From Candidatus Multivoradales bacterium (GTDB lineage: Bacteria; Acidobacteriota; Thermoanaerobaculia; Multivoradales; JAHEKO01), in assembly GCA_965223155.1 (NCBI GenBank), contig CBDCVR010000014.1, forward strand, positions 288,001 to 352,000: DNA of 64,000 bases, written 5' to 3'. The translations under genes and the position numbers were made by a program. The notes under the pieces are model-generated. The model was not told where the DNA came from. It ran no database searches and saw nothing but the letters and a program-made list of their open reading frames with translations. Shown here in pieces: positions 3,720-55,151 of the stretch (its first letter is position 1; every line of letters begins with the position of its first letter).

Positions 3720-3750
3720 CGCGACGGCTCCTTCGGATTCCGCTCGAAGC

Positions 3751-4701
3751 TCATAGCGAAGCCCACCTGACCTCAGGCGCTGCACCGCCCAGACCGGCGC
3801 GCAGCCGCGCCCGCCAGCGCTCGTACCCGGACGGGTCGAGCTCGTCCCGCGGACGGCTCCGCTCGGCCCACTCGGCGGCGCCTGTCCCATCCAGGCCGAC
3901 CAGTGCCTGGCACGCGCTCTCGGTCGCCCACGGAATTCGTCCAGCCTGCCGCCGCGCGGCGGCCGCGAATGCCGATCCTTGAGCCAGGTGAGCGCGGAAT
4001 TGGGCCGCGCACTCGACGAGCACGTCCAGCGCCTCCGGACCGGCGCCTCCGGCGTAGGTCGCCGCCAGCCCGACTCCCGACCAGAGGTCGCCCCGGCGAG
4101 GGAACGCGAACCGATCGATCGTGGCGCTGATGCCCTCGGCATCGGCGCAGTTCGAGAACCAGAGCGACCGGCCCAGTCCCTGATCGAAGGCACGCAGTCC
4201 GTACCCGGTCAGCGAGCGCGGTCTGAGCTGGCGCCCGACCGCCGGTTCAGTTCGGAAATACCCGTGGTGAAATCCGTAGCCATCGAAGGCGAGCCAACGC
4301 AGCATCGGGCGGAGGGTGCGTACGAGCTTGCCCTCGGCCCACCGCACCCGGGCGATCGCCCAGCCAACCCCGACATGGATCAAGTACGCGTAGCGGGGAC
4401 CGAAGCGATCCAGGAACGCCGGTAGGCGGTGAACTCCGCGCGGATCCAAGGCGTCCAGAAGAGCACACGCCATGGCTGCGCCTTCGACCGCAAAGCCAGC
4501 GCTCTCGACATCTTCTTCGAGCTCGCCCAACTCGAGACGTGCTCCGCCGCCAGCCGCCAGGGCGAGGTGGTATCCGGACAGAAAGGCCCGCCCAACGCCC
4601 TCGAGGTGCCCGCGCACAGCCGGATCTCCCATCGCAAACCCGCGCTCTCGAAAAAGCACCGCAGAAGGAGCGATGCGCAGAATTCGGAGCAGTAGCTTCA
4701 C
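3751..4701 (-). CDS. unbL: Enediyne biosynthesis protein UnbL/E3 (DUF1702)
   Basis: GFAVEGAAM, HVGVGWA, DGYGFHHGYF, FDQGLGRSLWF, DLWSGVGLAATYAGG motifs. First gene of the cassette. Confidence 0.93.
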   Translation of the reverse strand: MKLLLRILRIAPSAVLFRERGFAMGDPAVRGHLEGVGRAFLSGYHLALAAGGGARLELGELEEDVESAGFAVEGAAMACALLDALDPRGVHRLPAFLDRFGPRYAYLIHVGVGWAIARVRWAEGKLVRTLRPMLRWLAFDGYGFHHGYFRTEPAVGRQLRPRSLTGYGLRAFDQGLGRSLWFSNCADAEGISATIDRFAFPRRGDLWSGVGLAATYAGGAGPEALDVLVECAAQFRAHLAQGSAFAAAARRQAGRIPWATESACQALVGLDGTGAAEWAERSRPRDELDPSGYERWRARLRAGLGGAAPEVRWASL

Positions 4702-4887
4702 GACGACGTCCAGAGTGTTCCCATCCGAGTCGGTACCCCGTCGTCAGGAACCGCGAGTTGCAAGCGTCCAACACAGGCAGCGAGCCGATCCCTTCGACCT
4801 CGGATCCGACCTTTGGTTTGCTTGATGCCGTCAGTCTAGTGACGCTGCGCGATCCTGGCTCGTCGCCATTTTCGAATTCCAAGTCAC

Positions 4888-4918
4888 TTCTTCGACAGAA
4901 TGCGACAAATTTTTCGAT
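4888..4918 (-). promoter_or_regulatory. Candidate regulator-binding direct repeat upstream of unbL
   Basis: TTCGACAGAA/TGCGACAAAT repeat with 10-bp period in an AT-richer intergenic stretch between the AraC gene and unbL. Confidence 0.3.
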
Positions 4919-5037
4919 CCCGCTCGGCTGCGTCAGCTCGAGGGGAGGTCGAGGGCCGGTTGAGAGTAGGTCCGGCACCGTGCCGGTCGAGAGACTCCGA
5001 CCCAGCGGGTTGGCTACACCGGGTGTGGGAACCGGCC

Positions 5038-5403
5038 CTAGCTCGGCCGGTGACGGTTCTTGAATGAACGAGGCGTCTGGCCAGTGACGCGCTTGAAGGC
5101 GCGCTCGAACGTCCGAAGATCCCGATAGCCCACCGAATAGGCAAGCTCCGTAATGGTCGTATTGCGCTCCCGGATTCTCTGCTTGGCTCGCTCCACGCGC
5201 AAATGGTTGACCCATTGATTGAAAGGAACCCCGGTCTTGGCGCGAAAGAAGCTCGAGAAGTAGGCGGGGGACAAGCCCGCCACCTCGGCAACCTGGGTCA
5301 GCCCGATGTTCCGGTCCAGATTTCGCTCGACGTACTGCTGAACGCGGCTCAACCGTCTGTAGTAGCGAAACGCAGCACGATTGATCCGGCTCTCGTCGAA
5401 CAT
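5038..5403 (-). CDS. Stand-alone AraC-family HTH regulator (MarA/SoxS-like size)
   Basis: LTQVAEVAGLSPAYFSSFFRAKTG...ITELAYSVGYRDLRTFERAFKRVTGQTP; about 121 aa with no sensor domain. Confidence 0.9.
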   Translation of the reverse strand: MFDESRINRAAFRYYRRLSRVQQYVERNLDRNIGLTQVAEVAGLSPAYFSSFFRAKTGVPFNQWVNHLRVERAKQRIRERNTTITELAYSVGYRDLRTFERAFKRVTGQTPRSFKNRHRPS

Positions 5404-5626
5404 CCGGCCCGACACTCCCTCCAAGAAGACTGATCTTTTGAATTGTTACAGGCAAGCTTACACCATTCCGCGCTCGCGCCAACTCCTGATCTCGCACCTT
5501 GAGGATCGGCAAGGCGGGAGAAGCCAGCTCTCTTGCTTCGGCGCTACGGTGGAAGCACCTCACCGCCTAGGAACCTAGCCCGCACTCGGCTGGCCTTTCG
5601 AACACCGACGAAGAAGGAGTCTGACC

Positions 5627-6196
5627 ATGTTTCCAAAACCCGGCATCGACCTCGTCCAGCACGAACTTCGAGTTGACCTCTTTGGCGACCGCGACGGTAA
5701 GGAGGAACGCCTCGAGACGCTCGTGTTCGAAGGGCGCATGCTCCTCGAACGGGGAGGCGCCAGCCGCGACAAGGAAGGGACGCGACGCATCGACTTCCGG
5801 GTCCGCCGCTGGGAGGCGACCGCCTGGAGCGACACCCTCGACGCAGTCGTCACCTATGCCACCGGCGACAACGAGCAGCCGCTCAGCTATATCGTGTCGG
5901 AAGGCGCCGAGTCCGACTATCCCGCGACCCTCACGTTCAACGTCGTCTTCGACGCCTATCTCGACGGAGAGCTGGTCTTCCGGGCTCACGAGGGCCGGCC
6001 GGAAGGCCACGGCTTTCTCGAGATCCCGCCCAGCGGCTACCGCAAGTCGAGCCCGACGATCACCAGTTTCGAGGACACCCTGATCGAGGCCAAGCATCCG
6101 AAGCTGGGCGTCCTGCGCTTCAAGCCGCGCGACTGCAACGACCAGAACAGCGTCACCCTGAAGAGCTTCCCGGACGACAGAGAACGCGCGATCTAG
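5627..6196 (+). CDS. Hypothetical soluble protein (189 aa) divergent from the enediyne cassette
   Basis: Strong GAAGGAG RBS, GC3-biased codons, beta-rich-looking sequence. Family not confidently recognised. Confidence 0.8.
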   Translation: MFPKPGIDLVQHELRVDLFGDRDGKEERLETLVFEGRMLLERGGASRDKEGTRRIDFRVRRWEATAWSDTLDAVVTYATGDNEQPLSYIVSEGAESDYPATLTFNVVFDAYLDGELVFRAHEGRPEGHGFLEIPPSGYRKSSPTITSFEDTLIEAKHPKLGVLRFKPRDCNDQNSVTLKSFPDDRERAI

Positions 6197-6343
6197 ATCT
6201 AGAGGTTCGACCGCCCGGGTCGCGGTCCCGGGGCAACCCACCGCGATCCAGCCGCTTCCGGCTGCGGCGGCCAGATCCTCGCCAGCACCGGGTCGAGTCG
6301 ATGCCGAGGAGGACTCCGGGCAGCGTTGCGCCCGATGGGTTCT

Positions 6344-6775
6344 CTACCTCGGCCCGGCCCCAGCCCCGGCCCCGGCTCGACGGGCCAGCCAGGTCATGAC
6401 CAGCCCCAGGACCACGGTCAGCGGGCCTTCGACCCAGGCCCAGGCCGGAGGCAGGCCGGCCCAAAAAGCCACGGCGGTGAGGAAAACGCCCAAGACACAG
6501 ACCAGTCTGCCCATGAAGCTGATGAGGTCCAGATACCGTTCAACCTCGCGACTGGCGTAGAGAGTCAGAGCGCCTAGAAGCGCGTACACCGCCGAGAGCG
6601 AGCGAGTCAGGTACTCCATCAGCGGCGAGCTCTGGTACGGCTCGAGGCCGAGCGCGTCGTTGGCCGCCGCCATCCAGCCGGTCGGCATGACCGCGGTGAA
6701 GAGCGCCGAGGCCGCGACCACTCCCAGGAGCCGCAAGACCCAGGTCAGAACCTTCCGCGCGGTCGTGGCAAGCAC
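6344..6775 (-). CDS. Hypothetical 4-TM membrane protein
   Basis: Four hydrophobic segments; EYLTRSLSAVYALLG motif. Confidence 0.7.
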   Translation of the reverse strand: MLATTARKVLTWVLRLLGVVAASALFTAVMPTGWMAAANDALGLEPYQSSPLMEYLTRSLSAVYALLGALTLYASREVERYLDLISFMGRLVCVLGVFLTAVAFWAGLPPAWAWVEGPLTVVLGLVMTWLARRAGAGAGAGPR

Positions 6776-7029
6776 GTCGCAACCCTATAAGGCACCGCCG
6801 GACGCCGCAACCGGTGCCCGCCTCTCGAACGGCGGAAGCACCCGCGGCCGAACCGATCCCGGCAGCGACGGAGGGCGGCGGGCCGAGCCACTACTCCTTG
6901 CTAAGCTGTCGCCCCGACGTGAGCCCGACTCTTCCCGCCGGCCTCGAAGCCGCGCACTTTCGCATCGACGGCCTCCTCGGCAACGAAGGCATCGCCAGCG
7001 AGTACGTCCACGTAATCACTCCCGCCGCG

Positions 7030-7313
7030 GAACTCGTGGCCGAGGTTTCGGTCGGCCGGTCTTTGCCTCCGACGGCTCGTTTGTGGGCTTCGATCCCTCC
7101 GGCCGGAATCTCGTGGCACACCTCTACCGCGCCGGCGGGACCAACCTGTGGCTCGTGCCTCTCGACGGCTCGGAGTGGGTCCAACTGACCGACCGCGACC
7201 ACCGCCTCGAAGACTACATCCGAGACGCCGCTTGGAGTCCCGACGGCCAGCAGCTGGTCGTTTCCAAAGACAAGTACCTGAGCGATGCGGTTCTGATCGA
7301 GGGGTTTTCCTAG
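7030..7313 (+). pseudogene. C-terminal fragment of a TolB/PD40 beta-propeller protein
   Basis: TNLWLVPLDGSEWVQLTD...AAWSPDGQQLVVSK...SDAVLIEGFS*; no N-terminal part or credible start. Confidence 0.7.
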
Positions 7314-7407
7314 CCGGGCCGGAGTCGCCGACCGATCCCGGCGACGCCCGCTCTCGGAGCGCGGGAACCGAGAGGCAAGCGAGCGCAAGACCCGTCCGAC
7401 GGGACGG

Positions 7408-8067
7408 CTAGATTTCGCCGTCTTCCAGCAGCGCCGGACGGATCGCCGGTTCGGACAGATGCCGCGTCCGCAGCCCCCAGAACGCGCCGAAGCCGACGAC
7501 CAGCAGGATCTCCCCCAGGAGAAACACCGGGCCGTCGAGCTTGCCGAGCTTTCCCAGGACGGCCAGCGCCGCGCCGGCAATCATGATCGCGGCCGCGATG
7601 GAATACCCCAGAAGCGGCGGCGTCCGCTTGGCCCGGCCGAGCCGCTTCTTGACCCAGGGCAGCACGACGCCGACGGCGACGATACAGCCGAAGAGCACGA
7701 GAGCGGCGGCACCATGGGCCGACCAGAACCCGTCCTTGTCCTCGGGCGTCGGGATGAACGCCACCAAGACCGCCGAGATTCCGGCCACGTTGAGAAGCAT
7801 CGCCTCCCAACCCCGCCAGCCCTTGTACAGGGCCAAGAAAGCAGCGACCGCGCACAGGGTCCCGACGAACACGTTCCTTTGCAGGTCGGCGCCGTGGTAG
7901 TAGGCGCTCAGGGAGTCCTTGAGCGACCCACCGTCGTAGTGAAAACTCGACAAGACCAGTACGACCGGCAGGGCGAACGCCAGGATCGCCGTCAGTCTCG
8001 AGTAGGCAATGTAGGCGCGTACGATGTGATCGTTTGGTGGGCCGCCGGGTCGTCTCGCCATGGTCAC
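7408..8067 (-). CDS. Hypothetical membrane protein (DUF998-like)
   Basis: SLSAYYH, VFVGTLCAVAAFLALYKG, HGAAALVLF; multiple TM helices. Confidence 0.75.
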   Translation of the reverse strand: MTMARRPGGPPNDHIVRAYIAYSRLTAILAFALPVVLVLSSFHYDGGSLKDSLSAYYHGADLQRNVFVGTLCAVAAFLALYKGWRGWEAMLLNVAGISAVLVAFIPTPEDKDGFWSAHGAAALVLFGCIVAVGVVLPWVKKRLGRAKRTPPLLGYSIAAAIMIAGAALAVLGKLGKLDGPVFLLGEILLVVGFGAFWGLRTRHLSEPAIRPALLEDGEI

Positions 8068-8293
8068 GTCCCTCGCTTTCTGGAAGAAATCTTAGGAATC
8101 TCGTGTCCCTAGTCTAGACGGACCCGGCGATCGGCATTTCTCCGAAATCGCCACCCTGCACCGAGCCCAGCTCTTAGGCAGAACCCCAAAAAATTGAAGG
8201 CCCTGTCCGTAAAGCCGCGTCGCCGGCCAAGACCGTCCGTACCCAGCAGTGCCTGCCGCGAAAATCGCGATTGGCCCTCGTGAGAGTGTCCGC

Positions 8294-9358
8294 CTAGTGA
8301 GGGTGTCCGAAGGAGGTCGCCGCCGCGATATCGATATCGGGGTACTTCGCAACGGCCCGGCGCCACATCCGGTTGAGCTCGCGCCGGCGGAACCAGCGGC
8401 CGTCGAGCATCACGCCTTCCAGCTTCTGGAGATTGCCGATGCCCTTGAGAGGATTCCTCCGGACCAGAATCAGATCGGCCTTCTTCCCCGGCTCGACGGT
8501 CCCGTGCTCCCCAGCGACACCCAGCGCCTGAGCCGCGTTCCAGGTGGCTGCCCGCAACACCTCAGCGTCCGACAGCCCGGCTTCCCGGAGGCTCCTCATT
8601 TCTCGGTGGATCGAGAGTCCCGGAATGACCGTATTGACCGGCGCGTCGGTGCCGACCAGCAGCCCCGCACCGGCTTCATGGAGAGCCCGAACGAACTCCC
8701 GCCGGCGCTCGCGTCCCACGGCAAACTCGTCCACCGAGATCTCTTCTCGTTCGATGAGCTCGGCCAGAAGCGGGATTTTGCTGTTGCGCCAGTACCCCAG
8801 AAGGGGTCTGGGCGCCCACCGATAGTCGCGCCGGTCGAGCTGCGCCAGCATTCGATCCTCGGGGCCGACATAGTCCCCCACGATCAGAGTCGGGCAGCTC
8901 CAGATGCCCGATGTGGCGACCTTCTTGGCTAGAGCTTCGACACCTTCCGCTTCGATCGGAATCGACCCGACGACCCGCCGGAACGTCCATCGTCCTCGCC
9001 AGGGGGAGTCCAGCGTCTCCACCGCGGCGGCAAAGCCCAGCAGGTGCTCCATCGAGCGCATGTTCGTCGCCAGCAGTTTTCGAAGGGGATAGTCCGTCGG
9101 CACGTGACCCACGACCGGCAGGCCGAGGCGGCGGCCTTGCTTCAGGAATACGTCGGTGATCTTGCGGCTCAGGTTCGTGTAGATCTTGATGAAGTCGTAC
9201 CCCAGCGCCGCATAGTCCCTGGCGAGCTGCTTGGCTCTCTTCGTCGTCCAGACGGCGAAGTTGTCGCCGATGAGAGGCGGATCCCCGTCGTTGATCCAGC
9301 TCGCAAGAAAGAGGCTCGGGCCCTCCAAGGCGCAAGCAATCAGGGCAAGACCTTCCAT
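8294..9358 (-). pseudogene. Amidohydrolase-family protein, N-terminally truncated
   Basis: GYDFIKIY, VVGHVP, SMEH, LVGTDA, GTVEPGKKADLILV are present. The N-terminal beta-sandwich and HxH metal motif are missing. Confidence 0.75.
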
Positions 9359-9385
9359 CGGAGGGTCTTGCCTTTTTTCTTGCCC

Positions 9386-10408
9386 TCAGACGCCGGCGGC
9401 TTGCGACCTGAGAAAGCGGAATCCGACGAGTCGCCCTTCGTCTTCATCCCAGAGGTGCAGGCGCGCGCACCGGAGACTGCTGCGAATCGTCAAGCGGGTT
9501 ACGTGCTGTAGTTCCGGCACCCGCTGGAAACACTCTTTCAAGCGGTAGTTCGGAATCCGGCTCGCCAGGTGGTGCACGTGGTGGAAGCCGATGTTGCCGG
9601 TGAACCAGTGAAGCATCGGCGGCAGATCGTAAAACGAGCTGCCCTCGAGAGCCGCTCGGTGGAAGCTCCACTCCGGATGCTCCCGCCAGTAGGTGTCCTC
9701 GAACTGATGCTGGACGTAAAAGAGCCAGACGCCGAGCGCACCGCTAATCAGCGTAATGGGTACCTGCACCAAGAGGAACTTGTCGAGCCCGATCAACAGC
9801 CAGGCGGCCACGGTGATGCTCGCCAAGCACAAGTTCGTCCACATCACGCTCCGCCACTCGCGCTTCCAGCTCCGTGGCAGGTCGAGCGGCAGCCGATGCT
9901 TGATAACGAACTGGTAGAGCGGTCCCGCCAGCAGGAGCACCAACGGATTTCGATAAAGCCGGTACTTGAACCGTCCCCAGCGAGAGCGGGCAACGTACTC
10001 CCGGACCGTCAGCGTCGCGATGTCACCGAAGCCGCGCCGATCCAGGTCGCCGGAGGCACCATGATGGGCCGCATGCGTTCGGCGCCAGTACCGATAGGGC
10101 GTGAGAGTCACGACCCCCAGCAGCCCCCCGACGAGATCGTTGGCGACGCGAGAGCGAAAAAACGCCCCGTGCCCGCAGTCGTGCTGAAAGATAAACAGCC
10201 TGGTCAACAGTCCGGCGGCCGGCAGCGCCGCCAAAAGCGTCAGCCAGTAGGGACCCCGCAGGCTCAACAGCATCAGACCCCAGGTCAGCGCAAAAAGGGC
10301 CGCCGTGGACAGGAGCTGAAACCAGGCCTTGCGGTCCACCGGCCGGCTATAGGCCGCGAGAAGCCGGCTCCAGTACTGACTTTCAGCGGCTGGCGTGGGC
10401 TTGTGCAT
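9386..10408 (-). CDS. Membrane fatty acid desaturase (Bacillus Des/DesA-like)
   Basis: His boxes QHDCGHG, HAAHH, HHVHH; FYVQHQFED. Confidence 0.93.
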
Positions 10409-10577
10409 CCGTTCCCTCGTTATCCACCGTCTTCATCAGCGATATCTCCCCCTGAATGAGGCTCAAGAGCAGAGGCCCCTTCTTCGCGTACTTCGAGTCG
10501 CAACGGACACCATGAGCCCCAGGCAACAAGCTTCTCCTCGGCTCGATCCCACTCAGCCTCGCCACGACCCATCGAAC

Positions 10578-10865
10578 CTACCGCATTCTCCGGCTCTGCC
10601 CTCTCAAGAAAGCAAAGATTTCCTGCCACGCTTCTTTACCCGCGCCCGGATTCCGTCCAACGCTCATGCCACCACCGATCGATAGGACCTCCGGGCCCTC
10701 GGTGAAGTCGAACCCGTGCCGAGCGCCGGCATACCGCCGCACCCGGACATCGGCACCGTCAGGCAGTTGGTGCAGGATCCGGTCGCAGCTCTCGGGAGGA
10801 GTGATGTCGCCGGTCTCGCCCAGGAGCGTCAGCACCGGGAGCGGCGAGACCCATGCATCGCGAGT
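10578..10865 (-). pseudogene. C-terminal fragment of a dienelactone hydrolase (paralog of 19189-20028)
   Basis: PVLTLLGETGDITPPESCDRIL...YAGARHGFDFTEGPEVLSIGGGMSVGRNP is near-identical to the full copy; the nucleophile region is absent. Confidence 0.85.
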
Positions 10866-11178
10866 CATGAGCTTGCCTATCCGCCATTTCTTTGAAGAAC
10901 GGGGACCAGAGCTCCTCACGCCGAGCTGGCGCTTGCCACGGATGCTCGGAGACGGTCCGGCCGGCTCTTGGGCCAACCCGTTGACCAGTGTCTAGGGCAG
11001 GTAAGCGCTCGGCGCGCACGCCGTTCGCGAGTCGCGGACCGAACCAGGCCCGTTCGAGCGCCGGTCAGCCGGACTGGCGCCGCGACTGACGCCACGGGCA
11101 TCGCGGCACCGCACCCGACAGAGACAGGTATCCTGCCGCCGTAGCTCTTCTGATCAGCGATTCCGCCATACTAGAAAG

Positions 11179-13155
11179 ATGGAGACCGTAGAGTTCCTCT
11201 CGGAAGCGGTTGCTGTCCTCGCCGCCGCCGTCACGGTGGTGCTGCTCTCCGCCCGGCTGCGCATCCCTCCTGTGGTCGGCTTCCTGATCAGCGGTGTCCT
11301 CATCGGTCCCTCGGGTCTGGCCCTCGTGCCGGAGACCCATGAGGTCGAGGTCTTCGCCGAGATCGGAGTTGTGTTGCTCCTGTTCGTCATCGGGCTCCAG
11401 CTCAGCTCGACCGAGATGCGAACCCTGGGCCGCTCGTTTCTGATTGGCGGCACCCTCCAGTGGGCGCTTACTACCGGGCTCACCATGGGGATCGTCATCG
11501 GCTTCGGGCTGCCACCGGCCAACGCCCTCTTCATCGGCTTCGTGCTCAGCCTGTCGAGTACCGCGGTCGTCCTCAAGGAGTACCAGGAGCGGCGCGAGAC
11601 GACGACGCCTCAGGGCCGGGTGGTACTGGGCGTGCTCCTCTTCCAGGACCTGCTGATCGTGCCGATGATTGCCCTGACCCCGGTCCTGGCGGGCTCCATC
11701 GAGGCTTCCGCCTCGAGCTTGGCCCTGCGCTTCGGCGGCGGGCTGGCAGCGGTGGCTCTGGTCTTCTTCGCCGGCCGCGTCTTGATACGGCGGCTGACGC
11801 GGATGATCGCCGGCACCCGGGTCCGCGAGCTCTTCGTTCTCGGAGCGCTGACCACCTGCCTCGCCATGGCCTGGTTCACGGCGCGTCTCGAGTTCTCCCT
11901 GGCCCTGGGCGCGTTCCTTGCCGGAGTGCTGGTCGCCGAGACCGAGTACAGCCACCAGGTGATCGCCGACATCGGTCCGTTCCGCGATCTGTTCGCCAGC
12001 GTCTTTTTCGTTTCCATCGGCATGCTGGTCGATCTGCGCTTCGCATTGGCCAGCCTGCCGCTTCTCGTCGGCCTGGCCTTGCTGCTCGCCCTTGGCAAGG
12101 CCCTGGTAGCGGTGATGGCGCTCAAGCTCGCCGGCTTTACGATGCGCATCGCCCTCATCTGCGGCATCGGCCTGGCACAGATCGGCGAGTTCTCCTTCGT
12201 CCTCATGGAGGTCGGCCGGGCCAATGGCCTATTGCAGGGGGAGCGGTTTCAGATTCTCCTGGTTGCGGCGGTCCTGACCGTCGCCATGACACCCGTTCTG
12301 GTGCGCGCCGCGCCAGTGGTGAGCGCGCGGGTCGCCGCGCTGGCGGGCCTGCCGAGCCGCGACAAGGACGCGAGCAGCGACCAGGCGTCCTCGGCCCACG
12401 TGGTGGTGGTCGGATACGGCATGAACGGCAGCCTGCTCGCCCGGATCCTGGGAGAGACCCACATCCCGCATCTGGTGGTGGAGCTCGACCCGGAAGCGGA
12501 GCGCCGCGCCCGCGGCGAGGGCGTGCCGGTGCTGTTTGGCGACGCGGCGCAGAAAGAGATCCTGGAGCGGGCCGGGGTCGAACAGGCAAAGATGATCGTC
12601 TTCGCCATCTCCGATTTCACCGCCGTCAGTCGCGCGCTGAAGGCAGTTCGAGAGCTCTCGCCGAACGTCGAGATCCTGGTCCGCACGAGCAAGTTCCGGG
12701 AGATCGAGGCTCTCCGCGCGGCCGGCGCGAATCAGGTCGTGGCCGAGGAGTTCGAGTCGGCGATCGAGATCTTCACGCGCGTGCTGACCGCATACCACGT
12801 ACCGCGTAACGTGATCCGCGCCGAGACACGAGTCCTGCGCGGCGAGGCGTACGAGACGCTACGGAGCGCCCCCCTGGGCCAGGCCTTCGAAGCCGCCCTC
12901 GAGGCTCTAGAGGCCGGAACCACCGACATCTACCGCATCGCGTCTGGAGGTCGCGCGGCCGACCGTACTCTGGGAGAGCTCGACCTGCGGCGGCAGACTG
13001 GGGCCGGCGTCATCGCCGTGGTTCGCGGTGAGCAGTCGCATCCGAATCCGCCTTCCGACCTACGCTTGGAGGCCGGCGACTGTCTGGTCCTGGTGGGCGC
13101 CCACGAAGAGATCGATCGTGCCTTCCAGTTTCTCGACCTGACCGAGATCGCCTGA
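11179..13155 (+). CDS. CPA2 monovalent cation/H+ antiporter (KefB/KefC-like) with TrkA-N and TrkA-C domains
   Basis: LSSTAVV, LLFQD, LAQIGEFSFVL, VVVVGYG, C-terminal RCK_C. Confidence 0.93.
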   Translation: METVEFLSEAVAVLAAAVTVVLLSARLRIPPVVGFLISGVLIGPSGLALVPETHEVEVFAEIGVVLLLFVIGLQLSSTEMRTLGRSFLIGGTLQWALTTGLTMGIVIGFGLPPANALFIGFVLSLSSTAVVLKEYQERRETTTPQGRVVLGVLLFQDLLIVPMIALTPVLAGSIEASASSLALRFGGGLAAVALVFFAGRVLIRRLTRMIAGTRVRELFVLGALTTCLAMAWFTARLEFSLALGAFLAGVLVAETEYSHQVIADIGPFRDLFASVFFVSIGMLVDLRFALASLPLLVGLALLLALGKALVAVMALKLAGFTMRIALICGIGLAQIGEFSFVLMEVGRANGLLQGERFQILLVAAVLTVAMTPVLVRAAPVVSARVAALAGLPSRDKDASSDQASSAHVVVVGYGMNGSLLARILGETHIPHLVVELDPEAERRARGEGVPVLFGDAAQKEILERAGVEQAKMIVFAISDFTAVSRALKAVRELSPNVEILVRTSKFREIEALRAAGANQVVAEEFESAIEIFTRVLTAYHVPRNVIRAETRVLRGEAYETLRSAPLGQAFEAALEALEAGTTDIYRIASGGRAADRTLGELDLRRQTGAGVIAVVRGEQSHPNPPSDLRLEAGDCLVLVGAHEEIDRAFQFLDLTEIA

Positions 13156-13534
13156 GCCACAAGCCGGCTAGAGGCTCGCGCTGCCGGCGCCCTCGGCTTC
13201 ATGGCCCGAATCCTCATCCAGGCCACTCTCCCCCACAGCCGGGCCCGAAGCACCCGAATCCCGCACGAGTTCGAGCGCGTCAACGGCCGCTTCACCCTCT
13301 ACCTCAACGCACTGCCGTCGGTGGGACTGCCCGGCGGCTCCTACCCGCGGCTCACGTTTGCTTGGCTTTCGACCGAAGCGGTGCGGACCCGAAGCCGCGA
13401 GCTCGAGCTCGCTCCCACCTTCTCGAGCTTCATGTACAAGCTCGGGCTGACGCCGATCACGGGCAAGCGGGGTACGACGTCCCGCCTCCGAGATCAGCTC
13501 CACCGACTCTTTTCCGCCACGATCCGCTGCAGCT

Positions 13535-13594
13535 GGGGAAGCGGTGACTGGGTGGGAGGGCGGACGGGAGGGACTCCCTGTCACCGGTTTCCTG
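13535..13594 (+). repeat. Hairpin element H1a in repA copy 1
   Basis: GGAAGCGGTGACTGGG...CCCTGTCACCGGTTTCC arms; loop GGGTGGGAGGGCGGACGGGAGGG. Confidence 0.8.
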
Positions 13595-13658
13595 CGCTGG
13601 CATCGGCTACACCATCGCTCACAAGCACCAGCTTTGGTGGTCGCCCCGAGATCCGGAG

Positions 13659-13720
13659 CGGGAATTCGGGGACTGGCTCGAGAGGGGGCCAGGGAGGACG
13701 TGCCTGTCCCCGAATTCCCG
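13659..13720 (+). repeat. Hairpin element H1b in repA copy 1
   Basis: CGGGAATTCGGGGACTGGC...GCCTGTCCCCGAATTCCCG arms. Confidence 0.85.
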
Positions 13721-13781
13721 GCCGCAGCTCACGGCCGATAGGCATTGCGGGCCGGCCGCAGCGCGATCGCAAATCCGAGAA

Positions 13782-13985
13782 ACTTTTCACCGCAAAGTAC
13801 TTGACATCGAACAATTTCAGGCGCTACGCTCCCTCCATGCCGCGCGCGAGACCGATTGCCTCCGTAGACCGCTTCGGCATCGACATACCGGTTCCGAGCG
13901 GCTCTCTCCTGGAGTCCGGTGGCGAGACATTGTTCCAGGCGAGCCGCGGCGAGTTTTTTTGCCTACTTACTTTGCAATGCAAAGT
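13782..13985 (+). promoter_or_regulatory. Sigma70-like promoter with two operator palindromes upstream of the creD-like gene
   Basis: TTGACA (13801-13806) N18 TACGCT; perfect ACTTTGCA-A-TGCAAAGT (13969-13985) and degenerate ACTTTTCACCGCAAAGT (13782-13798). Confidence 0.55.
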
Positions 13986-14194
13986 CTACGGCAGTCGGAA
14001 TCTCCGTTCGCACCCACCCCTAGAAGGGCCACCATCGCTCAACCGCTCGGCGCGGCCTTCCCCGGCCCATCCATATCGCCGCGGAACGAATGCAGTGCGG
14101 GGAAAAGTCCCGGTCGCACCGGATCGCGGCATCGCCGCGCCCGGCTTCTGTCTCTTCTCTGCTTCTTCACCACCCATTCCCCGGAGCTAACGCC

Positions 14195-15448
14195 ATGACC
14201 GTTCGACACCTCCTCGCCATCTCGATGATCTTCTGCCTTGCCGCGCTCGCCTGGTTCCTGCTCGGCGCTTCCGTGCACTCGCGCACGCGCGAGTCGAGGG
14301 CCGCCGGCACCGGCGACGTCTCGCAACTGTGGGGCGACAAACATGTGCAGCTTGCGCCGAGGCTTTACTCCCTCCGGGAGCGCACCGTCTCCGGCGCGGG
14401 GCCCCTCGGAGATGAGCACAACGGACCGCAAACGCAGCAAGAACGGGTCATCACCGAACGGATCCCGATTCCCCCGGACCACAGCCGCGTGGCGGTCGAC
14501 CTGGCCGTCGACCACCGCAAGCGCGGACTTCTCTGGTTTGACACCTATACGGTCTCGTTTACCGGGAAGTACACGGCGCAGGTCCCCGATGACCCTCAGG
14601 GCCCCCTGTACGCGGGCTTCTCCTTGCCCTCGACCGCGGCGATCTACGACGACTTCTCACTCCAGATCAACGGCGTCGAAACCGCGCTCGATCCAGGCCT
14701 CTCCCACGAGTTGCGCGCTCAACTCAACGCTCAACCGGGACAGAAGGTGATGATCGACGTCCGCTACCGTTCCCGCGGACTCGATACTTGGCGCTACCGC
14801 TTTGCCGACGCAGACGTGGCCCAGGTGCGGGACTTCGAGCTCTCGATGTCGACCGACTTTGCAGCGATCGACTTTCCTCCCGACACCCTCTCGCCGACCG
14901 AAAGCAGCCGCGACGGTGACGGCTGGCGGCTGGCCTGGCGCTTTGAGAATCTGGTTAGCGGCAAGGGGATCGGCATGGATCTCCCAAACCGCATGAATCC
15001 CGGCCCGCTGGTCGGACGAATGACCTTCTTTGCCCCGGTTTCGCTTCTATTCTTCTTCACTGTGCTGGTCATGCTCGGCGCGCTCTCACTCCTGAGGCTC
15101 CACCCGATGCACTACTTCTTCCTGGCCGCCGCCTTCTTTGCCTTTCACCTGCTGATGGCGTACCTCGCCGACCATCTGAGCATCCATTCGGCATTCCTCC
15201 TCTCCGCCGCGGTGAGTCTCGCTCTCGTCTTGAGCTACCTGCGACTCGTCTGCGGCGTGCGCTCGGCGCTGCTGTACGCCGGAACCGCGCAGCTCGTCTA
15301 CCTCTTTCTCTTTAGCTACGCCTTCTTCTTCTCCGGATTCACCGGCTTGGCGATCACGGTTGGAGCGATCCTCACCCTCTTCGTACTGATGCAACTCACC
15401 GGACGACTTGATTGGGACGGCGTCTTCGCCGGGCAGAGGCCAACCTGA
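14195..15448 (+). CDS. Inner membrane CreD-family protein
   Basis: N-terminal TM, RKRGLLWF, LHPMHYFFLAAAFFAFHLLMAYL, C-terminal LMQLTGRLDW. Confidence 0.8.
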   Translation: MTVRHLLAISMIFCLAALAWFLLGASVHSRTRESRAAGTGDVSQLWGDKHVQLAPRLYSLRERTVSGAGPLGDEHNGPQTQQERVITERIPIPPDHSRVAVDLAVDHRKRGLLWFDTYTVSFTGKYTAQVPDDPQGPLYAGFSLPSTAAIYDDFSLQINGVETALDPGLSHELRAQLNAQPGQKVMIDVRYRSRGLDTWRYRFADADVAQVRDFELSMSTDFAAIDFPPDTLSPTESSRDGDGWRLAWRFENLVSGKGIGMDLPNRMNPGPLVGRMTFFAPVSLLFFFTVLVMLGALSLLRLHPMHYFFLAAAFFAFHLLMAYLADHLSIHSAFLLSAAVSLALVLSYLRLVCGVRSALLYAGTAQLVYLFLFSYAFFFSGFTGLAITVGAILTLFVLMQLTGRLDWDGVFAGQRPT

Positions 15449-15601
15449 GGCCAGCCCCCGTGCCCTGGCCCGTGGTCTCCAGCGAAGATGCGGTGGAAGA
15501 TGCGGTGACAGATGAGATGAGTCGGTCGGTCTCCAGCTGGGACACTGTGCCAGTTGGAGATAACCAAGAATCGGCATCAGAGCCGAGAAAGGAGACCGAC
15601 C

Positions 15602-16615
15602 ATGGAGTATCTTGGCATCGATGTTCACTCGAAGTACAGCGAGGTGTGTGGCGTATCAGAAGACGGTGAGGTGACGGTTCGCCGGCGGGTTCCGACGACC
15701 GAGACGGGCCTGCGAAGGTTCTTCGCCAATCGGGAACGCTCGCAGGTGACGCTCGAGAGCGGTCCGGTCACACCCTGGGTCTATCGACTGCTGTCTGAGC
15801 TCGGCCATGAGGTGATGGTGGTCAATCCACGCCGGGTACGTCTGATCGCGGAATCGACCCTGAAGACGGACGGAATCGACGCCGAGATCCTGGCTCGTTT
15901 GAGCCGGTTGGATCTGGGTTTGCTTCGACCAGTCTACCAGCGCACAGGTGAGGCCCAAGAGCTTCGGACGCGTCTTCGGGTCCGAACGAGTCTGGTGAAG
16001 ACCAGGACCTCGCTGATCAACTCCGTACGCGGAACGCTGCGGGCACAGGGCTACCGAGTGCCCTCATGTCCGGCGAAGAGCTTCGTGGCTCGGTACGCGT
16101 CGATGTCGGTCGAAGCCGGCCTGTTGGGAGCGCTCGAACCTCTGGTAACGACAATCGGCGAGCTGACCGATCGGATCCACCATCTCGAAGACGACCTCAT
16201 CTCCGAGTCGAGATCAAACGAGCTGGTCCGTCGGCTGCAGACGGTTCCTGGTGTGGGGCCTCTGGTGAGCCTTGCGTTCGTCGGCTGGATGGATCGTCCG
16301 GATCGGTTCGAGAAAAGCCGCGACGTCGGAGCGTGTCTGGGCTTGAGACCGTCGCTTCGCAGCTCAGGAGGGCATGAGGTCAGGGGCCGGATCACTCGCG
16401 AGGGCGACTCGGAGATGCGCAGACTCTTGGTGCAGGCAGCTCATGCGGCGTTGAACTGTCGCAAAGAGTCGTCACTCAAGAGATGGGCTGAGGGCCTGGT
16501 CGAGAGGCTGGGTAAGGGCAAGGCCGTGGTCGCGCTAGCTAGGAAGATCGCGGTGTTGCTCCACAGGCTGTGGGTGACAGGTGAGAGCTTCCGAGCCTTT
16601 CCCAAGGCAGCGTAG
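15602..16615 (+). CDS. IS110-family DEDD recombinase/transposase
   Basis: YLGIDVH, VTLES, KTDGIDAEILARL, TVPGVG, GLRPSLRSSGG (catalytic Ser), KAVVALARK. Confidence 0.96.
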   Translation: MEYLGIDVHSKYSEVCGVSEDGEVTVRRRVPTTETGLRRFFANRERSQVTLESGPVTPWVYRLLSELGHEVMVVNPRRVRLIAESTLKTDGIDAEILARLSRLDLGLLRPVYQRTGEAQELRTRLRVRTSLVKTRTSLINSVRGTLRAQGYRVPSCPAKSFVARYASMSVEAGLLGALEPLVTTIGELTDRIHHLEDDLISESRSNELVRRLQTVPGVGPLVSLAFVGWMDRPDRFEKSRDVGACLGLRPSLRSSGGHEVRGRITREGDSEMRRLLVQAAHAALNCRKESSLKRWAEGLVERLGKGKAVVALARKIAVLLHRLWVTGESFRAFPKAA

Positions 16616-49335: not shown

Positions 49336-49359
49336 TGTCCCGTGCGGCACGGGACACTA
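49333..49359. repeat. Perfect 13-bp palindrome, possible collapsed IS/MITE ends
   Basis: TAGTGTCCCGTGC-G-GCACGGGACACTA sits exactly at the ompW stop / czcA-fragment junction. Confidence 0.6.
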
Positions 49360-49740
49360 ATGGTGGTCTATACCGGAGTGGCGCTCGCGGCGGTCGGAGG
49401 CATCCTCGCGCTGTGGCTGTGCGGGATTCCCTTCTCCATCTCGGCGGGGGTTGAGTTTATCGCCCTGTTCGGAGTCGCGGTCTTGAACGGCGTCGTCATG
49501 GTCTCCGCCATCCGCCGCCTGCGAGCGGCGGGCGTAGCGCTCGAGGAGGCCGTGCGTCGAGGATGCGAGGAGCGCCTGCGGCCGGTCCTGATGACCGCCA
49601 TGGCGGCCTCCTTCGGCTTCGTGCCCATGGCGCTCTCTACCTCCGCCGGCGCCAAGGTCCAGCGGCCTCTGGCGACCGTTGTCATCGGGGGCCTGGTCAC
49701 CTCGACCCTGCTGACCCTGGTCGTCCTGCCGACGAAGGCC
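49360..49740 (+). pseudogene. C-terminal fragment of a CzcA/CusA RND efflux pump
   Basis: FSISAGVEFIALFGVAVLNGVVMV...RLRPVLMTA...GAKVQRPLATVVIGGLVTSTLLTLVVLP; only the last ~125 aa. Confidence 0.88.
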
Positions 49741-49746
49741 CGGGCG

Positions 49747-50376
49747 CTAGTCGGGACCAACCGTAGCAAGGACGAGACGGATCGGAAGCAGCCCTGGGAA
49801 CAAGACCTCTTGTTGCACGGTGAAGCCATGGCGACCCACCAGATCTCGCAGAGCGTCGCCTTTAAAGCGAGTGACGACCTGGAAGCCGGTGAGGCCGAGT
49901 AGGCGGGAGACTACGCGCGCCATCGCTGTCTCGCCGTGACAGAAGGTCGGCGCGGCCAGGAGCCCGTCCGTCGCGAGCACTCGCCGCGCCTCATCGAGCG
50001 CCCGCCCCGGATCGGGGAGTAGGTGAAGGAGGTTCGCGATGACGACCGCTTCGAACGAGCGATCCGGGAAAGCCAACTCGAGAGCGTCGGCCTCCTCGAC
50101 GCCAACGTTGGTCAGCCCACTCGCAGCGACGCGCGCCCGCAAGACAGCGAGCATCTCCGGCGAGCTGTCGGTGGCGAGGAGGGCACCTACGGCGGGTGCG
50201 ACTCGATCGGTGACCAGCCCCGTGCCGGCGGCGATCTCCAGAACCCGCCGCGAGCCGTGGATCGACTCAGCAACTCGATCGGCCATGGCACCAAAGTGCC
50301 GGTTCAGGATCAGAGTCGCCCGATCGTAGCGGCGGGAATGTCGCTTCCAATAACGCGCGGCGGTTTCGGCCATCAT
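49747..50376 (-). CDS. Class I SAM-dependent methyltransferase
   Basis: VLEIAAGTG, DSSPEML, ADALEL.FPD.SF, NLLHLL. Confidence 0.9.
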   Translation of the reverse strand: MMAETAARYWKRHSRRYDRATLILNRHFGAMADRVAESIHGSRRVLEIAAGTGLVTDRVAPAVGALLATDSSPEMLAVLRARVAASGLTNVGVEEADALELAFPDRSFEAVVIANLLHLLPDPGRALDEARRVLATDGLLAAPTFCHGETAMARVVSRLLGLTGFQVVTRFKGDALRDLVGRHGFTVQQEVLFPGLLPIRLVLATVGPD

Positions 50377-50687: not shown

Positions 50688-50796
50688 TGGTGTCCCCAAC
50701 GGGATTTGCTACGAAGCGGAGCGATGCAATCGCTTCGCTGACCTCCGAATCCCGGAGGGGGCAACCCTGCCGAAGGCAGTGGTGTCCCCAACGGGA
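50688..50796. repeat. 109-bp direct repeat, left copy (att - 71-bp hairpin unit - att)
   Basis: Identical to 54982-55090; contains two copies of the tRNA-Glu 3' end TGGTGTCCCCAACGGGA. Confidence 0.92.
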
Positions 50797-50956
50797 GAGA
50801 TCTGGAACACCGTTTTCGCCCAGCTGGAATCCTTTAACTCGCTGAGGGACATGAGCTTAGCCGCTTGAGGCTTTCGCTCTGACGCGTGCTGACAACTGTC
50901 CGCATCGCCTCGGGGAGGTCCTGGAGCGGACCGTTTGGAACACCCCTGCCGGAGCC

Positions 50957-51002
50957 CGGGGACAGGATAGGGAGGGCGGGCGTGAGGGACTTCCTGTCCC
51001 CG
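50957..51002 (+). repeat. Hairpin element H2a
   Basis: CGGGGACAGGA...TCCTGTCCCCG; loop GGGAGGGCGGGCGTGAGGG. Confidence 0.8.
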
Positions 51003-51418
51003 TCTCTCGGCGCCGCACGAAGGCCGCAAAACTCGCTCAAGAAGCGCTCGAGATCGAAGCCGAGGAAGCCCGAGCTGCCGGCGCCCTCGGCTTCATGGCT
51101 CGGATCCTCGTCCAGGCTACTCTCCCCCACAGTCGGCCGAACACGTACGAGTTCGAGCCCGTCAACGGCCGCTTCACGCTGTACATGAGCGCGCCGCCGT
51201 CGGTGGGACTCCCCTACGGCTCCTACCCGCGGCTCGCGCTCGCCTGGCTCTCGACCGAGGCGGTGCGTACTCGAAGCCGAGAGATCGAACTCGGCCCGAC
51301 CTTCTCGACCTTCATGTACAAGCTCGGCCTAACGCCCATAACCGGCAAGCGCGGCACGACGTCACGGCTGCGCGGTCAGCTCCACCGGCTCTTCTCCACC
51401 ACGATCCGCTGCAGCTAT

Positions 51419-51480
51419 CAGGAAAGTGGGGACTGGCATGGGAGGGAGGCCGGGAGGGACTGCCTGTCCCCAGTTTCCTG
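51419..51480 (+). repeat. Hairpin element H2b
   Basis: CAGGAAAGTGGGGACTGGCA...TGCCTGTCCCCAGTTTCCTG; loop GGGAGGGAGGCCGGGAGGG. Confidence 0.85.
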
Positions 51481-51544
51481 TACCGGCGCCGGCTACACCA
51501 TCGCCCACAAGCACCAGCTCTGGTGGTCGCCGCGGGATCCGCAA

Positions 51545-51606
51545 CAGGAATTCGGGGACTGGCTCGGGAATGGGCGAGGGCGGACGTGCCTGTACCCGAA
51601 TTCCTG
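51545..51606 (+). repeat. Hairpin element H2c
   Basis: CAGGAATTCGGGGACTGGC...GCCTGTACCCGAATTCCTG. Confidence 0.85.
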
Positions 51607-51917
51607 CAGCCAAGGGCTCGCCGCTAGCCCTCGACATCTACTCCTGGCTCACCTACCGGATGAGCTACCTGCGGAAGCCTTGCCTCATCCCCTGGGAGGC
51701 ACTCCAGACTCAGTTTGGCGCCGACTACGGACGACTACGGGACTTCAAGAGGAAGTTCCTCGGCCACCTAGAGGACGTGGTGCAGGTTTACCCCGCAGTG
51801 CGCCTCTCCGAGCAGCCGCCGGGTCTCTTGCTCCATGCGTCGCCGACTCATCTTCCTCGGGCCAGAGCCAGTCAGAGCTAGAGGCGCGCGGCCACGACTC
51901 AAACCGTTCTCGCGTCT

Positions 51918-54857: not shown

Positions 54858-54982
54858 AGTGGTAACCATAGTGGTAACCAAAAACTAGCGAGTTAAGCCG
54901 TTTTCTCCGAAACTTGTAGTAGTTACTTCGGGTCCTAACCGCGTACACCATGTCTCGACAAGTCACTCTAATACAGTGACTT
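54858..54982. mobile_element. Island end: arm-type repeats and hairpin adjoining att
   Basis: AGTGGTAACCA x2 (54858, 54870); AAGTCACT-N7-AGTGACTT hairpin (54960-54982) abutting the att core. Confidence 0.6.
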
Positions 54983-55090
54983 GGTGTCCCCAACGGGATT
55001 TGCTACGAAGCGGAGCGATGCAATCGCTTCGCTGACCTCCGAATCCCGGAGGGGGCAACCCTGCCGAAGGCAGTGGTGTCCCCAACGGGA
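54982..55090. repeat. 109-bp direct repeat, right copy, overlapping the tRNA 3' end
   Basis: Identical to 50688-50796. Confidence 0.92.
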
Positions 55091-55151
55091 TTTGAACCCG
55101 TGTTGCCAGCTTGAAAGGCTGGAGTCCTAGGCCAGGCTAGACGATGGGGAC
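55074..55151 (-). tRNA. tRNA-Glu (TTC)
   Basis: GTCCCCATCGTCTAGCCTGGCCTAGGACTCCAGCCTTTCAAGCTGGCAACACGGGTTCAAATCCCGTTGGGGACACCA: cloverleaf, anticodon TTC, encoded CCA. Confidence 0.97.

What the first reader, a model, noticed from the sequence alone, without database searches (positions are those of the whole stretch)
50957..51606. Family of fixed-geometry G-rich hairpin elements found only inside repA genes
Seen: five ~60-nt elements (13535, 13659, 50957, 51419, 51545), all in the same orientation, with consensus GGGGACWGG-(G-tract loop ending GGAC)-CCTGTCCCC. The GGGGAC-to-GTCCCC span is exactly 44 bp in four copies and 43 bp in one. Stems covary (GGTGAC/GTCACC vs GGGGAC/GTCCCC; GGGAATTC/GAATTCCC vs AGGAATTC/GAATTCCT) and four copies keep a T-T mismatch. 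Loops differ in sequence yet keep G3 tracts, with canonical G-quadruplex patterns in three. I found none outside the two repA copies. Two inserts in copy 2 are in frame; the third appears to replace a stretch of RepA (roughly 35 codons by recalled family alignment) and shifts the frame. Inference: a structure-selected REP/recombination-site-like element that preferentially hits, or is scarred into, plasmid-type replication genes. It could be an undescribed way of domesticating or inactivating integrative elements.
Basis: partly seen in the sequence, partly recalled or inferred. Interest (0 to 1): 0.85.

Follow-up and report, generated by a model that had tools for sequence, protein, structure and literature searches.

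The report
Palindromic repeats inserted in repA genes
Five 60-base hairpin repeats sit inside two decayed copies of a plasmid-type replication gene; they belong to a small clade-specific family of REP-like selfish palindromes that relatives carry in frame in intact repA genes and between ordinary genes.

Summary
Five G-rich-loop hairpins lie at the stated places, and they are the only five in this 4.0 Mb genome. Stem covariation is strong: 10 of 19 pairs change on both sides.

- **Family.** The hairpins form a family with subtypes A, B/B', C, D and E. An exact-pattern scan found it only in Thermoanaerobaculia/Acidobacteriota-labelled MAG contigs, one 'uncultured bacterium' contig and one Acidimicrobiia-labelled contig.
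- **Not inactivating.** Relatives have intact repA frames carrying one, two or all three hairpins in frame. The inserts fall in low-confidence loops of the predicted fold.
- **Not confined to repA.** Subtype C lies after stop codons of unrelated genes in G030, G029 and a metagenome contig. Subtype E forms intergenic clusters in G007.
- **The window's copies are relics.** Copy 1 ends at hairpin C. Copy 2 has an 83-nt deletion right after hairpin C.

Best reading: a REP/RPE-like palindromic element carried along with tRNA-Glu-linked repA cassettes. No transposase link was found. Intragenic in-frame REPs, often in replication and repair genes, are already described (PMC3733652).

The parts
50947..51012 (+). 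Hairpin subtype A at site 1. It lies in the conserved leader about 95 nt upstream of the ATG that gene callers use for repA copy 2. Core 50958-51001, perfect 10-bp inner stem.
   Evidence: (66.7 bits). Subtype A sits at the same site in intact genes of G002:C90, G067:C95 and G068:C405.
51417..51482 (+). Hairpin subtype B at site 2, in frame (QESGDWHGREAGRDCLSPVSC). In hairpin-free relatives 24 nt (SDEAEGHA) stand here.
   Evidence: (82.1 bits).
51543..51608 (+). Hairpin subtype C at site 3. One stem pair is broken (GTACCC). An 83-nt deletion and frameshift follow directly.
   Evidence: (73.9 bits).
13532..13596 (+). Hairpin subtype B' at site 2 of repA copy 1. Its core is 43 nt, one base short, so the frame shifts.
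   Evidence: (69.3 bits).
13657..13722 (+). Hairpin subtype C at site 3 of repA copy 1. Homology to all other repA genes stops at its 3' foot.
   Evidence: (78.6 bits).
50780..51881 (+). repA cassette copy 2: a 17-nt copy of the tRNA-Glu 3' end, a conserved leader, and a RepA_C gene broken by the deletion at about 51609-51613.
   Evidence: Pfam RepA_C E 1.8e-11 on the N-terminal half only. The cassette boundaries at 50780 and about 51860 are shared by many loci.
13170..13721 (+). repA copy 1: a 550-nt fragment running from 30 nt before the ATG to site 3. It lies between a KefB-like antiporter gene and unrelated sequence.
   Evidence: (RepA_C E 1.6e-8).
50688..50796 (+). Left copy of a perfect 109-nt direct repeat that brackets the 4.3-kb unit holding repA copy 2.
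   Evidence: 100% identity, spacing 4294 nt.
54982..55090 (+). Right copy of the 109-nt direct repeat. It overlaps the 3' end of tRNA-Glu.
55074..55151 (-). tRNA-Glu(TTC). Its 3' end supplies the 17-nt sequence with which every repA cassette begins.

Best explanation
The five elements belong to a low-copy family of REP/RPE-like palindromic repeats. An exact-pattern scan of public genomes found the family almost only in Thermoanaerobaculia/Acidobacteriota-labelled MAGs.

**Anatomy (shown).** Each copy is about 62 nt: a 15-19 bp stem on a GG[G/T]GAC-W-GG core and a G-tract loop of about 24 nt.

**Where they sit (shown).** Copies entered one subclade of RepA_C genes at a leader site and two loop-coding sites, and a fourth site holds a reversed D copy in one decayed gene. 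Because only frame-preserving inserts in tolerant loops survive, the inserts are translated as roughly 20-residue excursions. They are then inherited, swapped between paralogues and carried between genomes with the repA cassette. That cassette begins with a copy of the tRNA-Glu 3' end and lies beside that tRNA here.

**Elsewhere (shown).** In some relatives the same family occupies the ordinary REP niche, just after stop codons and in intergenic clusters.

**In this genome (shown).** Nothing active is visible. All five copies lie in two decayed repA copies, and the hairpins mark where those copies were truncated or deleted.

**Inferred.**
- The elements spread as non-autonomous mobile DNA.
- A hairpin-recognising enzyme that acts on single-stranded DNA, such as a Y1/HUH transposase, moves them. 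This is the least supported step.
- The palindromes themselves provoke the adjacent deletions, through slippage or recombination between copies.
For: **1. One nucleotide-level family, not a peptide.**
- Stems covary while loops keep G tracts.
- Subtype C is read as EFGDWLG... at site 3 and as RNSGTGSG... at site 1.
- It also occurs where nothing is translated.

**2. The same element in unrelated contexts.** Subtype C or C-like copies lie at:
- repA sites 1 and 3;
- the hflX 3' end next to a tRNA (G030:C308);
- between convergent genes (G030:C19, G030:C310);
- other intergenic places (G030:C4, G030:C43, G029:C10, L116).

G007 has 15 E-type copies on 5 contigs, including an array with a 106-nt period.

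**3. Empty sites exist.**
- Close repA relatives have 11, 24 and 12 native nt at sites 1, 2 and 3 where others have the hairpin.
- At the two non-repA places I compared (G030:C308 and G030:C19), G022, which belongs to the same genus as G030, has a different hairpin.

**4. The frame is preserved.**
- L085 reads 369 residues without a stop through A, B' and C.
- Of 27 near-full-length distinct copies, 16 carry hairpins, and 10 of those 16 align in a single frame.
- The AlphaFold2 model (mean pLDDT 81.6) has its only stretches below 50 at residues 126-133 and 164-167. These fall inside inserts B' (113-133) and C (156-175), between strands.

**5. Narrow distribution.**
- An exact-pattern scan of 185,579 species' genomes gave 9 stretches, all with repA or leader homology.
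- A metagenome scan gave 18 contigs, 16 of them with such homology at the hairpin.

**6. Precedent.** Intragenic in-frame REPs, several per gene and often in replication and repair genes, are described (PMC3733652: abstract and passages read). So are Rickettsia palindromic elements (PMC10969869: passages read).
Against: - **No mobilising enzyme is linked.** 7 Y1_Tnp loci from 6 genomes show no hairpin of this family; the best score is 13 bits.
- **No clean insertion signature.** At all three repA sites native bases are replaced rather than duplicated, and no target-site duplication is visible.
- **Copy-specific outer stems.** The outermost base pairs differ between copies yet stay complementary (GGTTATTCG/CGAATAACC, CGAGATTCG/CGAATCTCG). 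A simple cut-and-paste element does not predict this.
- **Low copy number.** There are 5 copies here, 16 pattern matches in G007 and about 10 strong matches in G030. Classical REPs run to 100 or more.
- **In-place maintenance at site 2.** B and B' occur only at site 2, yet differ by three compensated pairs. That suggests the structure is maintained in place, so a function for the repA cassette is not excluded.
- **Conserved loop.** Conserved G tracts in the loop are unusual for a REP.
Confidence: 0.68

Rival explanations
1. The hairpins are working cis-elements of the repA cassette. On the sense transcript or on single-stranded DNA they could act as hairpin/G-quadruplex switches that tune repA translation, mRNA stability or initiation. 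The intergenic copies in G030 and G007 would then be escapees.
For: - B and B' occur only at site 2 and keep pairing through three two-sided changes inside a coding region.
- Loop G tracts are conserved across subtypes.
- Site 1 hosts a hairpin of three different kinds, A, C and an unrelated GC hairpin in L065, right after a repeated TTTGGAACACC motif in the leader.
- Most copies have the G-rich strand on the sense strand of the gene they lie in or follow (my count: 11 of 14 places).
Against: - Many closely related intact repA genes have no hairpin at all: 10 of the 11 hairpin-free near-full-length copies are in a single frame.
- Every combination of sites occurs, so none is required.
- The orientation trend is weak.
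- Arm-to-arm correction by template switching can keep palindromes paired without selection. This rests on my knowledge of quasipalindrome mutagenesis and was not tested.
- Contigs from RNA libraries mostly carry hairpin-free relatives and show nothing about processing.
Confidence: 0.17
2. One reading: an element that specifically targets plasmid-type replication genes and so disables or domesticates integrated elements.
For: - 32 of 37 strong matches lie in the repA context.
- Both window copies are broken at a hairpin.
- Leader-plus-hairpin stumps without repA occur in G019:C42 (two) and in L112.
- Hairpin-bearing copies are frame-shifted more often: 6 of 16 against 1 of 11. The sample is small and biased.
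Against: - Intact genes carry one to three hairpins in frame.
- The repA copies reduce to about five sites that are inherited with the gene.
- Copies also lie outside repA.
- No common target sequence is visible at the three empty sites.
Confidence: 0.08
3. The segments are ordinary lineage-specific coding insertions of RepA selected at the protein level, and the hairpin is a by-product.
For: The inserts are in frame, and the GDW.G....CLSP-like peptides recur in 15 of the 120 best database hits.
Against: - The same DNA is read in two frames at two sites.
- It occurs in non-coding DNA.
- Stems covary at the nucleotide level.
- The inserts are predicted to be disordered.
Confidence: 0.03

Closest known systems
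Intragenic REPs (GTAG/CGTC-tagged palindromic repeats; Di Nocera et al. 2013, PMC3733652; abstract and passages read)
   Same: - Short palindromes that lie mostly downstream of ORFs.
- Some are found inside genes, in frame, sometimes twice in one gene, encoding 20-30 residues.
- The paper notes a striking bias of such cases to replication and repair genes.
   Different: - No GTAG or CGTC tag.
- Longer stem (15-19 bp) and a 24-nt G-tract loop.
- Very low copy number.
- The host gene is a plasmid-type initiator on a tRNA-linked cassette, not a chromosomal repair gene.
- The paper's lists of intragenic REPs are in supplementary files that I could not open.
Rickettsia palindromic elements (RPE; Ogata et al. 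2000 and 2002, as described in PMC10969869, passages read)
   Same: Palindromic selfish DNA inserted in frame into protein-coding genes and compatible with the fold. The same families also occur between genes.
   Different: - RPEs are given there as about 150 bp, each with a conserved peptide.
- These elements are about 62 nt, and subtype C is read in two frames.
- The phylum differs (Acidobacteriota).
REP/REPIN-RAYT systems (PMC3116915, PMC3337134, PMC2817692: search listings and abstracts only)
   Same: - Hairpin repeats in post-stop intergenic positions and clusters, with lineage-specific variants.
- A conserved stem mismatch, which I recall as a recognition feature for Y1 transposases.
- One RAYT-like gene in G030:C199 is flanked by another GGGGGACAC-stem REP.
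   Different: - No RAYT is flanked by this hairpin.
- No inverted doublets were seen.
- Tens of copies, not hundreds.
Integron attC sites
   Same: Folded single-strand recombination sites of 60-140 nt with conserved geometry, variable sequence and unpaired bases. Here, rearrangements occur at the hairpin foot.
   Different: - The recalled R'/R'' core (GTTRRRY) is absent.
- No integrase of any tyrosine type lies in the window.
- The copies lie inside a gene, not between cassettes.

Membership tests
REP / REPIN-RAYT | Short hairpin repeat dispersed in extragenic positions, mostly downstream of ORFs | tested here: met
   Met in relatives only: G030 (5 places), G029:C10, L116 and G007 (5 contigs). 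In this genome all 5 copies are inside repA remnants.
REP / REPIN-RAYT | High copy number (usually more than 100 per genome, per the abstract of PMC2817692) | tested here: not met
   5 in G000. 16 pattern matches in G007 (74% complete). 38 model matches at E<=0.01 in G030, which count both strands and other hairpins.
REP / REPIN-RAYT | Unpaired GTAG or CGTC tag at one end (PMC3733652 abstract) | tested here: not met
   The bases 5' of the stems are ATTCG, AAGTG/AAGCG or GCCCG in the 23 aligned copies. This was judged by eye.
REP / REPIN-RAYT | A Y1 (RAYT) transposase gene flanked by the same hairpins | tested here: not met
   Y1_Tnp is present in 10 of 10 genomes searched. The 7 loci fetched show no match above 13 bits. 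Assemblies are fragmented, so absence is not shown.
RPE-like in-frame intragenic palindromes | Palindromic element inside an ORF with the reading frame kept | tested here: met
   L085 has 369 residues and no stop through A, B' and C. Further examples are L087, L084, L065, L041, L091, L092, L111 and L114 and database proteins P0001-P0007.
RPE-like in-frame intragenic palindromes | Insert lies where the fold tolerates it (loops) | tested here: met
   AlphaFold2 model m62713c5285df has pLDDT below 50 only at 126-133 and 164-167, inside the two inserts and between strands. This is a prediction only.
RPE-like in-frame intragenic palindromes | One conserved peptide per element family | tested here: inconclusive
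   B/B' and C at site 3 give similar GDW.G...CLSP peptides. C at site 1 is in another frame, but site 1 may be untranslated, because gene callers start at MARILVQ.
MITE | Terminal inverted repeats with target-site duplication | tested here: not met
   No duplication is seen. 11, 24 and 12 native nt are replaced at sites 1-3.
Any Rfam family | Match to a curated covariance model | tested here: not met
   Only two chance-level miRNA matches, far below their gathering scores.
RepA_C (PF04796), the host gene | Profile match over the whole domain | tested here: not met
   The window copies match profile positions 2-88 and 2-93 of 181 only. Intact relatives match 2-165. The window copies are broken members.

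The most novel reading that the evidence does not exclude
The repA cassette is the vehicle by which this hairpin family moves between genomes. On this reading, hairpins ride in frame inside a horizontally moving replication gene. They seed new genome-wide REP-like families where a compatible enzyme exists: the E-type in G007 shares 12+12 stem bases with that genome's own repA B' copy. They also serve as break-and-join points that shuffle what follows the cassette leader, as in leader+hairpin joined to an ECF sigma gene. This would give REP-type repeats, usually held to be inherited vertically, a horizontal route.
Probability: 0.15. Interest if true: 0.65.

Novelty: new variant of a known kind. 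Interest (0 to 1): 0.4.

Why it matters
In-frame palindromic passengers in genes are known from Rickettsia and from REPs in repair genes. How they get there and why replication genes are favoured is unsettled.

This case offers a compact system for that question:
- one 1-kb gene with three to four occupied sites;
- every combination of filled and empty sites among close relatives;
- intact and decayed versions;
- sister copies in ordinary REP positions.

It also documents a REP-like family in Acidobacteriota with a G-quadruplex-prone loop. For annotating this genome the message is plain: both repA copies are pseudogenes, and the hairpins are inherited relics.

Tried and rejected
- **RepA-binding half-sites.** I considered that the stems mimic RepA-binding half-sites, because TGTCCCC also occurs in the sequence that starts every cassette. 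That sequence turned out to be the 3' end of tRNA-Glu, so the idea was dropped.
- **Rfam.** No family matches.
- **Y1/RAYT linkage.** Not found at 7 loci.
- **Integrase in the window.** None; the nearest lies 31 kb beyond its end.
- **RNA evidence.** Contigs of 4 RNA-library runs laid on 50780-51900 come from relatives 85-95% alike. Most carry the hairpin-free sequence at sites 1 and 2. The 'joints' have native letters between the two sides, so they are other alleles, not processing. The runs are not shown to be transcribed.
- **Target motif or duplication.** None found at the empty sites.
- **Right flank of copy 1 against L116.** Only the hairpin itself is shared.
- **Intactness comparison.** The comparison of hairpin-bearing and hairpin-free copies (6 of 16 against 1 of 11 shifted) rests on loci fetched because they held hairpins, so it is too biased to use.
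- **Tools.** Supplementary files of PMC3733652, which list intragenic REPs, could not be opened.

Full report
**What is there**

The window is G000:C14:288001-352000. The five elements are as described.

- The motif gives 5 matches, against 0.01 expected by chance.
- The spans are 44, 44, 44, 44 and 43 nt.
- A regex scan and a covariance-model scan of the whole 4.0 Mb assembly find no other copy.
- Each folds as a hairpin of about 62 nt: 15-19 bp of stem around a T-T mismatch (A-T in copy A) and a G-tract loop of about 24 nt.

**The host genes**

Both hosts are RepA_C (PF04796) genes that match only the first half of the profile.

- *Copy 1* (13170-13721) is a fragment. Its homology to every other repA ends at the 3' foot of hairpin C.
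- *Copy 2* (50780-51881) has hairpins at three sites, with an 83-nt deletion immediately after the third that shifts the frame.
- The genome has two further repA genes that are intact and hairpin-free.

**The family in relatives**

RepA_C genes are frequent in this bacterial family: 30 of 61 genomes scanned, up to 19 matches in one. The hairpins recur in them.

On 23 copies from 11 genomes:
- 89.2% of cells pair;
- 10 of 19 pairs change on both sides;
- no shuffle of 500 reaches the covariation score;
- slid registers give 32-54% pairing.

Subtypes are tied to sites.

| Subtype | Where found |
|---|---|
| A | Site 1, in the leader |
| B and B' | Site 2 |
| C | Site 1, site 3 and outside repA |
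| D | Once, reversed, near the start codon of a decayed copy |
| E | Intergenic clusters in G007 |

Of the 37 model matches of 55 bits or more in 45 genomes, 32 lie in repA or against its leader, and 5 lie elsewhere.

An exact-pattern scan of one genome for each of 185,579 species gave 9 stretches. Seven are labelled Thermoanaerobaculia or Acidobacteriota, one 'uncultured bacterium' and one, a 2-kb contig, Acidimicrobiia. All 9 carry repA or leader homology. The metagenome scan gave 18 contigs, 16 with such homology at the hairpin.

**The inserts do not kill the gene**

- L085 (G068:C405) reads 369 residues without a stop through A, B' and C.
- Single-frame genes also carry A+B, C+B', C, B, B' or A alone.
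- Among the 120 best of 2229 database homologues, 15 carry the B/B' peptide and 5 the C peptide. All of these are in the closest subclade.
- Hairpin-free close relatives show what stood there before: 11 nt at site 1, 24 nt (SDEAEGHA) at site 2 and 12 nt (RPLW) at site 3. The net gains of 57, 39 and 48 nt are all multiples of three.
- An AlphaFold2 model of the L085 protein (mean pLDDT 81.6) is confident throughout except in the two inserts, which loop out between strands.
- Subtype C is read in different frames at sites 1 and 3, so the conserved object is DNA or RNA, not a peptide.

**They are not confined to repA**

- In G030, C-type copies lie at the 3' end of hflX beside a tRNA, between convergent genes (two places), and in two more intergenic places. 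G029:C10 and metagenome contig L116 add one each, the latter 40 nt past a stop codon.
- At the two non-repA places I compared (G030:C308 and G030:C19), G022, which belongs to the same genus as G030, carries a different GC hairpin. This is the usual turnover seen with REPs.
- G007 has 15 E-type copies on five contigs, including an array with a 106-nt period on both sides of a housekeeping gene. Their stems share 12+12 bases with the B' copy in that genome's own repA.

**Context of the cassette**

- Every repA unit starts sharply with 17 nt identical to the 3' end of tRNA-Glu.
- In the window, a perfect 109-nt direct repeat brackets a 4.3-kb unit next to that tRNA. The unit holds repA copy 2, a split Ser/Thr-kinase-TPR gene and a hydrolase fragment.
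- No integrase lies in the window.
- In G003, which belongs to the same genus as G000, the repA next to the same TPR gene is intact. It carries C at site 1, B at site 2 and nothing at site 3. Hairpin content therefore differs between syntenic copies.

**Rearrangements at hairpins**

- Both window copies are broken at a hairpin.
- In G067:C71 a deletion starts after C at site 1.
- G019:C42 (two places) and L112 have leader plus hairpin with no repA behind it; an ECF sigma gene or a CorA gene comes next.
- G030:C124 shows a B'-C-B' arrangement that looks like recombination between C copies.

**Mechanism**

No mobilising enzyme could be tied to the family.
- Y1_Tnp genes are present in all 10 genomes searched, but none of the 7 loci fetched is flanked by it.
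- One such gene in G030 is flanked by a different GGGGGACAC-stem REP.
- There is no target duplication.
- The outermost stem pairs are copy-specific yet complementary. This fits palindrome extension by template switching, or insertion into small palindromes, better than simple transposition. That point is inference.
- Contigs from RNA libraries were uninformative.

**Comparison with what is known**

- The behaviour matches intragenic in-frame REPs, for which a bias to replication and repair genes and double insertions in one gene are reported (PMC3733652: abstract and passages read).
- It also matches Rickettsia palindromic elements (PMC10969869: passages read).
- It fails the formal REP tests: tag, copy number and RAYT flank.
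- Two full-text searches for a description in Thermoanaerobaculia or Acidobacteria found nothing relevant. One search used 'Thermoanaerobaculia' + 'palindromic'. One search used 'Acidobacteria', 'repetitive extragenic palindromic' and 'RAYT'.

**Verdict**

This is a real, structure-constrained repeat family and a new variant of a known kind. In this genome it survives only as relics in two dead repA copies. Interest is moderate.

Noticed in passing
window 50688-50796 and 54982-55090; tRNA-Glu at 55074-55151 (-): A perfect 109-nt direct repeat brackets a 4.3-kb unit beside tRNA-Glu. The unit holds repA copy 2, a split kinase-TPR gene and a hydrolase fragment. It looks like att-type repeats of an integrated cassette, but there is no integrase within the window.
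   Followed up: partly
L066 (G003:C39:5000-22000) 1168-15875; G002:C90: repA cassettes stand in tandem about 6.8 kb apart. Each is followed on the opposite strand by a large Ser/Thr kinase fused to TPR or PD40 repeats. G002 has 19 RepA_C matches. What these repA-kinase cassettes do is unexplained.
   Followed up: partly
L071 740-765 (G030:C308); many contigs of G004 and G001: A 26-nt stretch around the palindrome GGGGACACCATTCCTTGGTGTCCCC, built from the tRNA-Glu acceptor end and its complement, recurs many times at 96-100% identity in G004 and G001, which belong to the same genus as G000. It is absent from G000.
   Followed up: no
L126 (G030:C199) 1056-1126 and 1796-1846: A Y1_Tnp (RAYT-like) gene is flanked by REPs with a GGGGGACACAAACC stem. 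This is a separate REP family whose stem starts like the one studied here.
   Followed up: partly
G009, G015, G019, G029, G036 (listing): Further palindrome families share the GGACAGG[C/T]AC...GT[A/G]CCTGTCC stem core but have A/T-rich or other loops. The GGACAGG stem may be a common theme of REP-like repeats in this clade.
   Followed up: no
window 11179-13155; L102 3925-4560; L073 7017-7652: The C-terminal part of a KefB-like cation/proton antiporter gene lies next to repA in three genera, in different arrangements. This suggests it travels as cargo with the cassettes.
   Followed up: no
L130 and L135 (G022:C5): At two sites G022 has a GCGGCCGGCGCC...GCCGGCCG hairpin just after the stop codon where G030 has the G-loop hairpin. 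Different repeat families therefore occupy the same niche within one genus.
   Followed up: partly
window 49342-49902: A C-terminal fragment of an RND (CusA/CzcA-like) efflux pump lies upstream of the cassette. The same fragment lies upstream of a repA in G002:C51. The family name is my reading of the translation and was not tested.
   Followed up: no
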